This document shows positions 63,011-64,000 of a DNA stretch of 64,000 nt, piece after piece. The notes below the pieces were generated by a model. That model searched no databases. It was not told where the DNA came from and saw only the letters and a list, made by a program, of their open reading frames with translations. Location of the stretch: the NCBI RefSeq assembly GCF_013315695.1, contig NZ_CP054353.1; one strand, 5' to 3'. Numbering within the stretch: the first letter of the stretch is position 1; each line of letters opens with the position of its first letter. The position numbers and the translations under genes were made by a program. The DNA comes from Escherichia coli (GTDB lineage: Bacteria; Pseudomonadota; Gammaproteobacteria; Enterobacterales; Enterobacteriaceae).

Positions 63011-63096
63011 GAACGAAAAAGGCCGCAGAGTTTCACCCCTGCGGCCTGGTCCGGGCGCAAATTGCCATTACGGCAGCCTGACGCCCGCATGACACG

Positions 63097-63204
63097 TTAC
63101 TTCCGCTTATTCAGCGAGTTCACGATCAGACTGGCAAGAATGCCAGCAATGACCGGAGCCGCTAAATCATGCCAGAAGGCCATGCCCAGTTCTGCGAGCG
63201 TCAT
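63097..63204 (-). CDS. ldrD: Ldr-family type I toxin peptide (35 aa), copy 1
   Basis: Minus-strand ORF MTLAELGMAFWHDLAAPVIAGILASLIVNSLNKRK*; the ORF-track ORF 63097..63339 is an upstream-extended version. Confidence 0.8.
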   Translation of the reverse strand: MTLAELGMAFWHDLAAPVIAGILASLIVNSLNKRK

Positions 63205-63249
63205 ATAGCCGCCTCTGTTGTAATGACAACGTTTCGCGGCTATTCTTGA

Positions 63250-63316
63250 GTTGTTAAGGTTCAAGATTAGCCCCCGTGATGTTGTCAGGTGCATACCTGC
63301 AACGTGCGGGGGTTTT
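63250..63316 (+). ncRNA. rdlD: Rdl-family antisense RNA, copy 1 (approximate ends)
   Basis: Plus-strand element about 46 bp from the ldr start codon, ending in hairpin cccccgtg...cgggggtttt; antisense to the ldr mRNA leader. Confidence 0.55.
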
Positions 63317-63580
63317 CTCTCTCCAGCAACCAATGCCACCAGGGATTAAGCCCCCCGCAACATTGCGCCTCACCGGAACCCTTCCGGCTTGCCACTGATT
63401 CTACGACTGTTTTTCTGTTCCGGAATCCGTCACGTCTTCACTCTGTGCTGCGCATTCCGCAGAATATTATCCGCTTGCAACCGTTGCATTTTTCTTACGA
63501 AAAAGGCCGCAGAGTTTTATCCCTGCGGCCTGATCCGGGCGCAAATTGCCATTACGGCAGCCTGACGCCCGTCTGACACG

Positions 63581-63688
63581 TTACTTCCGCTTGTTCAGCC
63601 AGTTCACGATCAGACTGGCAAGAATGCCAGCAATGACCGGAGCCGCTAAATCATGCCAGAAGGCCATGCCCAGTTCTGCGAGCGTCAT
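63581..63688 (-). CDS. Ldr-family type I toxin peptide (35 aa), copy 2
   Basis: MTLAELGMAFWHDLAAPVIAGILASLIVNWLNKRK*; differs from copy 1 at one residue (W vs S). Confidence 0.8.
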   Translation of the reverse strand: MTLAELGMAFWHDLAAPVIAGILASLIVNWLNKRK

Positions 63689-63734
63689 ATAGCCGCCTCT
63701 GTTGTAATGACAACGTTTCGCGGCTATTCTTGAG

Positions 63735-63802
63735 TTGTTTGGGTTCAAGATTAGCCCCCGTGATGTTGTCAGGTGCATACCTGCAACGTGCGGGGGTTTT
63801 CT
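63735..63802 (+). ncRNA. Rdl-family antisense RNA, copy 2 (approximate ends)
   Basis: Second copy of the cccccgtg...cgggggtttt terminated element in the second repeat unit. Confidence 0.55.
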
Positions 63803-64000
63803 CTCTCCAGCAACCAATGCCACCAGGGATAAAGCCCCCGCAACATTGCGCCTCACCGGAATCCTTCCGGCTTGCCGCTGATTCTACGACTGTTTTTCTG
63901 TTCCGGAATCCATCACTTCTTCACTCTGTGCTGCGCATTCCGCAGAATATTATCCGCTTGCAACCGTTGCATTTTTCTTACGAAAAAGGCCGCAGAGTTT

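What the first reader, a model, noticed from the sequence alone, without database searches (positions are those of the whole stretch)
63014..64000. Tandem duplication of the ldr/rdl type I toxin–antitoxin unit downstream of bcsG
Where I recall K-12 having a single ldrD/rdlD unit after bcsG, this window has at least two near-identical 486-bp units. Each has a 35-aa Ldr toxin ORF (one W/S difference near the C-terminus) and a terminator-bearing antisense RNA, and a further repeat may start at the window edge. Copy-number expansion of a toxin locus is unusual and creates a recombination-prone array.
Basis: partly seen in the sequence, partly recalled or inferred. Interest (0 to 1): 0.45.

Follow-up and report, generated by a model that had tools for sequence, protein, structure and literature searches.

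The report
Known ldr/rdl toxin–antitoxin repeat array
The repeats after bcsG are a real tandem array of the well-known E. coli Ldr/Rdl small-toxin/antisense-RNA module, but about 61% of complete E. coli genomes carry such an array, so it is ordinary and K-12's single copy is the collapsed form.

Summary
Window 63013-63496 and 63497-63979 are two direct tandem units of 484 and 483 nt (not 486), about 97% identical. A third unit starts at 63980. Each unit has a 35-aa Ldr ORF on the minus strand (Pfam Ldr_toxin, 83 and 91 bits), an Rdl antisense RNA on the plus strand (Rfam rdlD, 88 and 90 bits) and two terminators. The peptides differ only at residue 30 (Ser versus Trp).

The reading as an unusual, possibly recent expansion is not supported.
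- A unit-to-unit junction probe finds at least 2 units in 3302 of 5426 complete E. coli genomes (61%).
- Sampled arrays hold 1 to 5 units.
- Genomes identical to the window carry five units between bcsG and yhjV, as does strain SMS-3-5.
- BL21(DE3) carries three units, which was published in 2017.
- Units differ by 1.5-5% and cluster by position across strains, so the array is old.
- K-12's single LDR-D equals BL21 unit 1 joined to the tail of BL21 unit 3, so it is a collapse product.
- A sister isolate with four units carries a unit 3/unit 4 hybrid, showing ongoing unequal recombination.

Verdict: already known, low interest. One untested lead remains: a significantly hypervariable patch at the unpaired 5' end of Rdl.

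The parts
61331..63010 (+). bcsG (cellulose phosphoethanolamine transferase). This is the upstream flank of the array, given for context only.
   Evidence: 559-aa ORF. Annotated as bcsG in the identical genome NZ_OZ547117.1.
63013..63496 (.). LDR unit 1 (484 nt), the first unit of the tandem array.
   Evidence: Repeat and alignment results. Positional orthologue of unit 1 of SMS-3-5, at 0.3% divergence.
63020..63047 (-). Intrinsic terminator of the unit 1 ldr mRNA: hairpin AGGCCGCAGGGGTGAAACTCTGCGGCCT followed by TTTTT.
   Evidence: Terminator scan.
63097..63204 (-). ldr toxin ORF of unit 1, 35 aa, MTLAELGMAFWHDLAAPVIAGILASLIVNSLNKRK. This is the Ser30 allele, RefSeq WP_000170736.1.
   Evidence: ORF list. 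Pfam Ldr_toxin PF13940, 83.4 bits. Annotated as an Ldr family toxin. The allele is seen on at least 1000 contigs.
63218..63246 (+). Putative rdl promoter of unit 1: TTGTAA (63218-63223), 17 nt, TATTCT (63241-63246). The Rdl 5' end lies 7 nt downstream.
   Evidence: Read directly from the sequence. It falls below the stringency of the consensus scan. This is an inference, not a mapped promoter.
63253..63318 (+). Rdl antisense (antitoxin) RNA of unit 1. It has an 11-nt unpaired 5' tail, a long stem-loop and a U tail.
   Evidence: Rfam RF01813, 88.3 bits, E = 1.4e-18. Fold of -31.7 kcal/mol, z = -5.3.
63398..63403 (-). TAGAAT, a -10-like hexamer placed where the ldr mRNA promoter of unit 1 is expected.
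   Evidence: Sequence. The position fits a transcript of about 370 nt ending at the terminator. This is an inference.
63497..63979 (.). LDR unit 2 (483 nt).
   Evidence: Orthologue of SMS-3-5 unit 2, at 0.5% divergence.
63504..63531 (-). Intrinsic terminator of the unit 2 ldr mRNA.
63581..63688 (-). ldr toxin ORF of unit 2, 35 aa, ending ...LIVNWLNKRK (Trp30, RefSeq WP_000170738.1).
   Evidence: Pfam Ldr_toxin, 90.7 bits. Annotation.
63737..63802 (+). Rdl antisense RNA of unit 2.
   Evidence: Rfam RF01813, 90.4 bits, E = 4.1e-19. Fold.
63881..63886 (-). TAGAAT, a -10-like hexamer for the ldr mRNA of unit 2.
   Evidence: Sequence. Inference.
63980..64000 (.). The first 21 nt of unit 3, cut by the window end. 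In genomes identical to the window, units 3, 4 and 5 follow, and then yhjV.
   Evidence: Alignment. The window is 100% identical over 5.5 kb to NZ_OZ547117.1, which has five Ldr CDSs between bcsG and yhjV.

Best explanation
This is the start of a chromosomal LDR (long direct repeat) array: head-to-tail copies of the Ldr/Rdl type I toxin-antitoxin module between bcsG and yhjV. The genomes that match the window exactly carry five units. Each 483/484-nt unit is a self-contained module. On the minus strand, a promoter region drives an mRNA with a long 5' UTR, the 35-codon ldr ORF and its own terminator. On the plus strand, a roughly 66-nt Rdl RNA is encoded opposite the 5' UTR, 49-114 nt upstream of the ldr start codon. 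Published work on K-12 LdrD/RdlD gives the mechanism. Rdl pairs with the ldr leader and prevents translation of the membrane-active toxic peptide. It does so indirectly, because it does not cover the ribosome-binding site; a hok/mok/sok-like leader ORF, ldrX, has been proposed. The duplex is cut by RNase III. The array itself is an old polymorphic feature of Escherichia, not a recent expansion. Unit number (1-5) changes through unequal homologous recombination between units. The single K-12 unit is one product of such a collapse. What is shown here: the sequence anatomy, family membership, population frequency, positional orthology of units and the recombinant junctions. What is inferred from literature on K-12: transcription, toxicity and Rdl repression for these particular units.
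For: Anatomy: repeats, ORFs, Rfam rdlD above the gathering score in both units, Pfam Ldr_toxin for both peptides, terminators and the Rdl fold. Extension: the window is 100% identical over 5.5 kb to NZ_OZ547117.1, which has five annotated Ldr CDSs between bcsG and yhjV. Frequency: the junction probe covers at least 80% in 3302 of 5426 genomes. An evenly spaced sample of 60 records gave 1 unit in 23 rows, 2 units in 6, 3 units in 20, 4 units in 9 and 5 units in 1. Thirty-eight of the 60 best-ranked records have five units, including SMS-3-5. Age: units differ by 1.5-5% and cluster by position across strains in a neighbour-joining tree. A separate Escherichia species representative (E1V33) has 2 units at the same locus, and Citrobacter sedlakii has 1. 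Recombination: K-12 LDR-D has 0 differences from BL21 unit 1 over positions 1-393 and 0 differences from BL21 unit 3 after position 267. Unit 3 of the four-unit isolate AF14 matches AF3 unit 3 up to position 118 and AF3 unit 4 from position 233. Literature: three ldrD/rdlD pairs between bcsG and yhjV in BL21(DE3), versus one in K-12 (PMC5435950); tandem duplication is typical of type I loci (PMC2887945); Rdl mechanism and ldrX (PMC4147584; PMC8167048); an RNase III-dependent ldrD-rdlD duplex in vivo (PMC7373196).
Against: No expression or toxicity data exist for these units, so function is transferred from K-12 LdrD and LdrA. The unit 1 peptide lacks the Trp described as the Ldr/Fst superfamily signature and could be weakened. 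The proposed leader ORF could not be confirmed: the in-frame 30-codon upstream ORF present in both window units is interrupted or lacks its ATG in 7 of 53 sampled Escherichia units, and it is not conserved in Citrobacter or Pseudocitrobacter. The window ends inside the array, so the number of units in its own genome (5, or 4 as in sister isolates) is inferred from identical genomes. Frequencies come from complete RefSeq genomes, which are a biased sample of E. coli.
Confidence: 0.93

Rival explanations
1. One reading: a recent, lineage-specific copy-number expansion of a single ancestral ldrD/rdlD unit, unusual among E. coli.
For: K-12 and O157:H7 have one unit at this locus. Citrobacter sedlakii and Pseudocitrobacter have one, so a single unit was probably the state before the genus Escherichia.
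Against: 61% of complete E. coli genomes have at least 2 units. Units in one array differ by 1.5-5% and have positional orthologues at 0.3-1% divergence in other strains. K-12's unit is an exact chimera of BL21 units 1 and 3, which a duplication starting from K-12's unit cannot produce. A different Escherichia species already has 2 units.
Confidence: 0.03
2. Part of the array is decaying. Unit 1, with Ser in place of the conserved Trp30, is an inactive or attenuated toxin copy kept only because its Rdl is useful or because it is neutral.
For: Trp after the transmembrane helix is described as the Ldr/Fst signature (PMC2887945). Ser30 occurs only in unit 1 of five-unit arrays and their four-unit derivative AF14, and Trp30 is invariant in the other 48 Escherichia units sampled.
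Against: The ORF, Rdl, terminator and promoter-like elements of unit 1 are intact. The peptide still scores 83 bits against Ldr_toxin. The Ser30 allele is kept in positional orthologues of strains 0.3-1.5% diverged and is seen on at least 1000 contigs. The toxic Fst prototype has Val at this position, so the Trp is not essential (PMC7472228).
Confidence: 0.2
3. Assembly or reading artefact: a single unit was mis-assembled into apparent repeats.
For: Repeats of about 480 nt can confuse short-read assemblies. The E. albertii draft contig ends inside an LDR unit.
Against: The two complete units in the window differ at 15 substitutions and 1 indel. The same ordered, distinct units recur in independent complete genomes.
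Confidence: 0.01

Closest known systems
LDR-D (ldrD/rdlD) of E. coli K-12, between bcsG and yhjV. Source: Kawano et al. 2002 Mol Microbiol 45:333, cited from the reviews read here and from my own knowledge.
   Same: Same locus, same module and same element order. The peptide is 33/35 or 32/35 identical: K-12 has MTF... and ...SMIVNW, the window has MTL... and ...SLIVN(S/W). Rdl matches the same Rfam family.
   Different: K-12 has one unit. The window has at least 2 units plus the start of a third, and identical genomes have 5. K-12's unit is a recombinant of a first-unit head and a last-unit tail.
The three ldrD/rdlD pairs between bcsG and yhjV in E. coli BL21(DE3) (Kim et al. 2017, PMC5435950).
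   Same: The same phenomenon at the same locus: a tandem array of 483-nt units, each annotated with an Ldr toxin. The paper's transcriptome-based annotation places RdlD antisense RNAs there.
   Different: Three units rather than five. Unit sequences and peptide alleles differ: BL21 unit 1 encodes the K-12-type MTF peptide, and there is no Ser30 allele.
The LDR-A/B/C tandem array (ldrABC/rdlABC) between kdsA and chaA in K-12.
   Same: Tandem head-to-tail LDR units, each with a 35-aa toxin and an Rdl RNA. The same 5'-tail hot spot distinguishes rdlA from rdlB.
   Different: A different chromosomal locus, a period of 535 nt, and only about 80% nucleotide identity to the bcsG-locus units.
The hok/mok/sok type I system.
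   Same: A long toxin-mRNA leader, with the antisense RNA opposite the 5' UTR rather than the toxin ribosome-binding site. Control through a leader ORF has been proposed. There is a weak Rfam sok-model similarity on the ldr mRNA strand (28 bits, E = 0.001).
   Different: The toxin family is unrelated. The sok match is far below its gathering score of 59. The leader ORF is not confirmed for these units.
The ibs/sib repeat family, with cognate discrimination through variable target-recognition domains (Han et al. 2010, PMC2943612).
   Same: Multi-copy, partly tandem type I modules. The most variable positions lie in the antisense RNA region expected to start pairing.
   Different: Sib overlaps the whole ibs ORF and ribosome-binding site, whereas Rdl does not. 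Cognate-only repression has been shown for Sib but not tested for Rdl.

Membership tests
Ldr/Rdl type I toxin-antitoxin (LDR repeat) | A 35-aa hydrophobic Ldr peptide (Pfam Ldr_toxin PF13940). | tested here: met
   Both peptides match full length, at 83.4 and 90.7 bits against a cut-off of 27.
Ldr/Rdl type I toxin-antitoxin (LDR repeat) | A cis-encoded Rdl antisense RNA of about 60-66 nt (Rfam RF01813). | tested here: met
   88.3 and 90.4 bits against a gathering score of 50, with the full model length 1-66 matched. Stable stem-loop with z about -5.
Ldr/Rdl type I toxin-antitoxin (LDR repeat) | [quoted passage not shown] | tested here: met
   Rdl at 63253-63318 versus the ldr ATG at 63204, a gap of 48 nt. 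The spacing is the same in unit 2.
Ldr/Rdl type I toxin-antitoxin (LDR repeat) | A direct repeat unit of about 450-530 bp, often in tandem. | tested here: met
   Units of 484 and 483 nt, head to tail. Five units in identical genomes.
Ldr/Rdl type I toxin-antitoxin (LDR repeat) | The Ldr/Fst superfamily signature: a conserved Trp after the transmembrane helix, followed by a charged C-terminus. | tested here: inconclusive
   Unit 2 has Trp30 followed by LNKRK. Unit 1 has Ser30 followed by LNKRK. The Trp is not essential in the toxic Fst prototype.
Ldr/Rdl type I toxin-antitoxin (LDR repeat) | The peptide is toxic on overexpression, and co-expressed cognate Rdl relieves the toxicity. | not testable with these tools
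   Shown for K-12 LdrD/RdlD and for LdrA in the literature. These alleles have not been assayed.
Ldr/Rdl type I toxin-antitoxin (LDR repeat) | A regulatory leader ORF (ldrX) whose translation is coupled to ldr and blocked by Rdl. This is proposed, not established. | tested here: inconclusive
   An in-frame ATG in the loop of the Rdl-target hairpin opens a 30-codon leader in both window units. That ORF is broken or lacks its ATG in 7 of 53 Escherichia units and in the outgroups. The published definition of ldrX could not be retrieved.

The most novel reading that the evidence does not exclude
The hypervariable patch at the rdl start may act as an address code. It spans unit columns 234-249, which are window 63246-63261 and 63730-63745, and it covers the first 9 nt of the unpaired 5' tail of Rdl. 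Rdl is cis-encoded, so a change there keeps perfect pairing with its own ldr mRNA but creates mismatches with the other units. Each unit in an array would then be repressed mainly by its own Rdl, as shown for Sib/Ibs and as expected if the 5' tail starts pairing as in Sok. Arrays would be sets of independently controlled toxins rather than redundant copies. In the window, units 1 and 2 differ at Rdl nt 4-5. Across 15 arrays, only 2 of 70 within-array unit pairs share a tail.
Probability: 0.3. Interest if true: 0.4.

Novelty: already known. Interest (0 to 1): 0.1.

Why it matters
It matters little as a discovery. LDR elements were named for being long direct repeats. Multi-copy ldr/rdl arrays are annotated in thousands of RefSeq genomes, and a three-unit array at exactly this locus is published for BL21(DE3). 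The check still gives three practical points. First, K-12 is the atypical, collapsed state at this locus, so conclusions about ldrD copy number drawn from K-12 do not generalise. Second, the array changes length between near-identical clinical isolates, which makes it a recombination hot spot, a cause of assembly breaks and a possible strain-typing marker. Third, the variable Rdl 5' tail gives a cheap, testable hypothesis about cross-talk between copies of a type I toxin-antitoxin module.

Tried and rejected
1. Tandem Repeats Finder found nothing. Two copies near its 500-nt period limit were not reported, so the repeat finder and an alignment were used instead.
2. The scan of genome contigs with the 15-nt pattern CAAGATTAGCCCCCG was my mistake. 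The pattern was too short for 298 Gb, and most of the 120 loci were chance hits. Only E. albertii, Escherichia sp. E1V33, E. coli E69, Citrobacter sedlakii, Pseudocitrobacter faecalis and Kluyvera were informative.
3. The '80% coverage' count in the first genome search looked like near-universal two-unit arrays. It was rejected because the tool joins pieces that reuse the same subject unit. It was replaced by record spans and annotated CDS counts and by a junction-specific probe.
4. NCBIfam has no model that matches the peptides.
5. The consensus promoter scan found no sigma-70 sites. The promoter-like hexamers listed in the parts were read by eye and remain inferences.
6. Kawano 2012 (RNA Biol), which defines ldrX, is not held in the library.
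7. The plasmid-borne Ldr hit was considered as possible evidence of mobility. It was rejected because it is a chromosomal prfA-kdsA-ldr-chaA segment sitting on a large plasmid.
8. The lower share of identical Rdl tails within arrays than between genomes was considered as evidence of selection. It was rejected as independent evidence because positional orthology alone produces it.

Full report
**Observation**

The sequence after the bcsG stop codon (bcsG is 61331-63010, plus strand) contains two complete direct repeats. Unit 1 is 63013-63496 (484 nt) and unit 2 is 63497-63979 (483 nt). They differ by 15 substitutions and one 1-nt indel, about 97% identity. The last 21 nt of the window (63980-64000) repeat the first 21 nt of a unit, so a third unit begins at the edge.

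Each unit has the following parts.
- A 35-codon ORF on the minus strand (63097-63204 and 63581-63688).
- An Rfam rdlD match on the plus strand (63253-63318 at 88.3 bits, 63737-63802 at 90.4 bits, gathering score 50).
- A GC-rich hairpin with a T run that ends the ldr transcript (minus strand 63047-63020 and 63531-63504).
- The Rdl terminator stem.

Both peptides are full-length matches to Pfam Ldr_toxin, at 83 and 91 bits. They differ only at residue 30, Ser in unit 1 and Trp in unit 2. Rdl folds into an 11-nt unpaired 5' tail, a long stem-loop and a U tail (-31.7 kcal/mol, z about -5).

**What lies beyond the window**

The last 5.5 kb of the window is 100% identical to E. coli isolate AF3 (NZ_OZ547117.1). 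This stretch includes an IS1 copy that truncates bcsE. In AF3 the array has five annotated Ldr genes, and then yhjV follows. Strains MSB1_4I and MS 21-1 match the five-unit query at 100% (MS 21-1 with a slightly lower score), and both have five Ldr genes.

**How common is the array?**

A 179-nt probe spanning the tail of one unit and the head of the next (window 63408-63586) is covered at 80% or more in 3302 of 5426 complete E. coli genomes, or 61%. Almost all the others match only the 90-nt unit head, as expected for a single unit.

The five-unit array was also used as a query. An evenly spaced sample of 60 records down the ranking gave these counts.

| Units at the locus | Rows | Examples |
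|---|---|---|
| 1 | 23 | K-12 derivatives, O157:H7 |
| 2 | 6 | |
| 3 | 20 | ST131, IHE3034, a BL21(DE3) derivative |
| 4 | 9 | |
| 5 | 1 | |

The remaining row was a plasmid hit. Among the 60 best-ranked records, 38 have five units, including SMS-3-5, an early RefSeq reference genome (NC_010498). Tandem arrays are therefore the majority state of this locus.

[quoted passage not shown] Fozo et al. 2010 describe tandem duplication and lineage-specific duplication as typical of type I loci. They used tandem repetition as a search criterion and counted ten Ldr/Fst genes in Shigella sonnei (PMC2887945).

**Age and dynamics of the array**

I extracted 53 units from 15 E. coli genomes and Escherichia sp. 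E1V33, plus two outgroup units. Units within one array differ by 1.5-5%.

In a neighbour-joining tree the units group by position across strains, not by genome. Window unit 1 is 0.3% from SMS-3-5 unit 1, unit 2 is 0.5% from SMS-3-5 unit 2, unit 4 is 0.3% from SMS-3-5 unit 4, and the last units cluster together. The array therefore predates the divergence of these strains.

A separate Escherichia species representative (E1V33) has two units between bcsG and yhjV. Citrobacter sedlakii has one unit at the same locus, and Pseudocitrobacter faecalis has one unit after bcsG.

Two recombinant junctions show how the unit number changes.
- K-12's single LDR-D has no differences from BL21 unit 1 over positions 1-393 and none from BL21 unit 3 after position 267. 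This is exactly the product of an unequal crossover between unit 1 and unit 3 of a BL21-like three-unit array.
- Isolates AF10 and AF14 differ from the window by 3 substitutions in 4.2 kb and have four units. AF14 units 1, 2 and 4 are identical to AF3 units 1, 2 and 5. AF14 unit 3 equals AF3 unit 3 up to position 118 and AF3 unit 4 from position 233. This is a recent 5-to-4 deletion with the crossover inside the ldr ORF or leader.

The remark that it is an unusual, possibly recent expansion is not.

**Mechanism**

The anatomy shown here matches the K-12 module element by element. The function comes from published work, cited through the reviews read here.
- Overproduced LdrD kills cells and condenses the nucleoid, and co-expressed RdlD relieves this.
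- RdlD is complementary to the 5' UTR and not to the ribosome-binding site, so repression of translation is indirect.
- Gerdes and Wagner proposed a leader ORF, ldrX, coupled to ldr as mok is to hok. This is still unconfirmed (PMC4147584; PMC8167048; PMC8594479).
- An RNase III-dependent 21-nt duplex from the ldrD/rdlD overlap was captured in vivo (PMC7373196).

In the window, Rdl starts 49 nt upstream of the ldr ATG. An in-frame ATG lies in the loop of the mRNA hairpin that is complementary to the Rdl stem-loop, and it opens a 30-codon leader in both units. That ORF is interrupted or lacks its ATG in 7 of 53 Escherichia units and in both outgroups. I therefore cannot confirm it as the regulatory leader.

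A weak match to the Rfam sok model on the ldr mRNA strand (28 bits, E = 0.001, far below the gathering score of 59) fits the noted resemblance of organisation and carries no further weight.

**The Ser30 allele**

Trp after the transmembrane helix is called the Ldr/Fst signature. Ser30 occurs only in unit 1 of five-unit arrays and of their four-unit derivative AF14: the window lineage, SMS-3-5, 2017-02-2CC and Z0117EC0005. It is a RefSeq protein found on at least 1000 contigs. The rest of unit 1 is intact. The toxic Fst prototype has Val at the equivalent position. Attenuation is possible but not indicated.

**One observation that goes slightly beyond the literature I could read**

Diversity among the 47 distinct unit sequences is not even. 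Nine of the 16 columns at unit positions 234-249 have diversity above 0.2, against 29 of 398 columns overall. This stretch runs from the last base of the putative rdl -10 hexamer to Rdl nt 9. No 16-column window reached nine in 20,000 column shuffles, and the summed-diversity test gave P = 0.00065.

These positions lie in the unpaired 5' tail of Rdl. Ten different 16-nt tails occur in 53 units. The same patch separates rdlA from rdlB in K-12. Only 2 of 70 within-array pairs share a tail, although positional orthology alone would give that result.

By analogy with Sib/Ibs, where the variable regions are the target-recognition domains that enforce cognate-only repression (PMC2943612), this patch could insulate units from one another. 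In Sok, as I recall, the 5' single-stranded tail starts the pairing. I rate the insulation idea at about 0.3. The column shuffle ignores relatedness, and window units 2 and 3 share the same tail.

**Verdict**

The finding is a correct identification of a known element. Novelty: already known. Interest: low.

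Noticed in passing
window 59040-59810 (IS1 ORFs 59065-59568 and 59487-59762, minus strand); truncated bcsE ORF 59827-61146: An IS1A copy sits between a remnant of bcsR and an N-terminally truncated bcsE (439 aa against 523 aa in K-12). It removes the divergent bcs promoter region, so cellulose production is probably impaired in this strain. The sister isolates AF10 and AF14 have an intact bcsE with IS1 further upstream.
   Followed up: partly
window 63246-63261 and 63730-63745 (unit columns 234-249): A statistically significant hypervariable patch among LDR units lies at the rdl transcription start and the first 9 nt of the unpaired Rdl 5' tail. Ten 16-nt tail variants occur in 53 units. 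It may be a cognate-recognition code.
   Followed up: partly
L003/L004 (isolates AF14 and AF10) compared with L001 (AF3), array region: Near-identical bloodstream isolates differ by one LDR unit (4 versus 5). The four-unit form carries a unit 3/unit 4 hybrid with the crossover between unit positions 119 and 232.
   Followed up: yes
L002 (K-12) 3897-4563 compared with L130 (BL21 derivative): K-12 LDR-D is an exact chimera of BL21 unit 1 (positions 1-393) and BL21 unit 3 (from position 268 onward). The textbook single ldrD locus is therefore a deletion product.
   Followed up: yes
window 63202-63355 and 63686-63839, minus strand: The Rfam sok (CssrC) model gives sub-threshold matches to the ldr mRNA leader (28 and 27 bits, gathering score 59). 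This fits the published view that ldr/rdl is organised like hok/sok, but it is not evidence of homology.
   Followed up: no
window 63292-63294 (ATG, minus strand) to 63205, and the equivalent stretch in unit 2: An in-frame 30-codon ORF upstream of ldr starts in the loop of the Rdl-target hairpin. It is open in 46 of 53 sampled units. Five units have a stop codon, two have ATA in place of ATG, and it is absent in Citrobacter and Pseudocitrobacter. Its relation to the proposed ldrX is unresolved.
   Followed up: partly
L138 (plasmid p23AR0151A, NZ_CP195449.1, 118138-126501): A 195-kb plasmid carries a block of chromosomal genes, prfA-prmC-sirB-kdsA-ldr-chaA-chaBC, including one LDR-A-type unit. 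It looks like an F-prime-like capture or a replicon mis-assignment.
   Followed up: partly
L007 (E. albertii NBRC 107761 contig, 14639-14829): The draft contig ends inside an LDR unit next to yhjV. This is the expected signature of a repeat array breaking a short-read assembly. The unit number in E. albertii was not determined.
   Followed up: no
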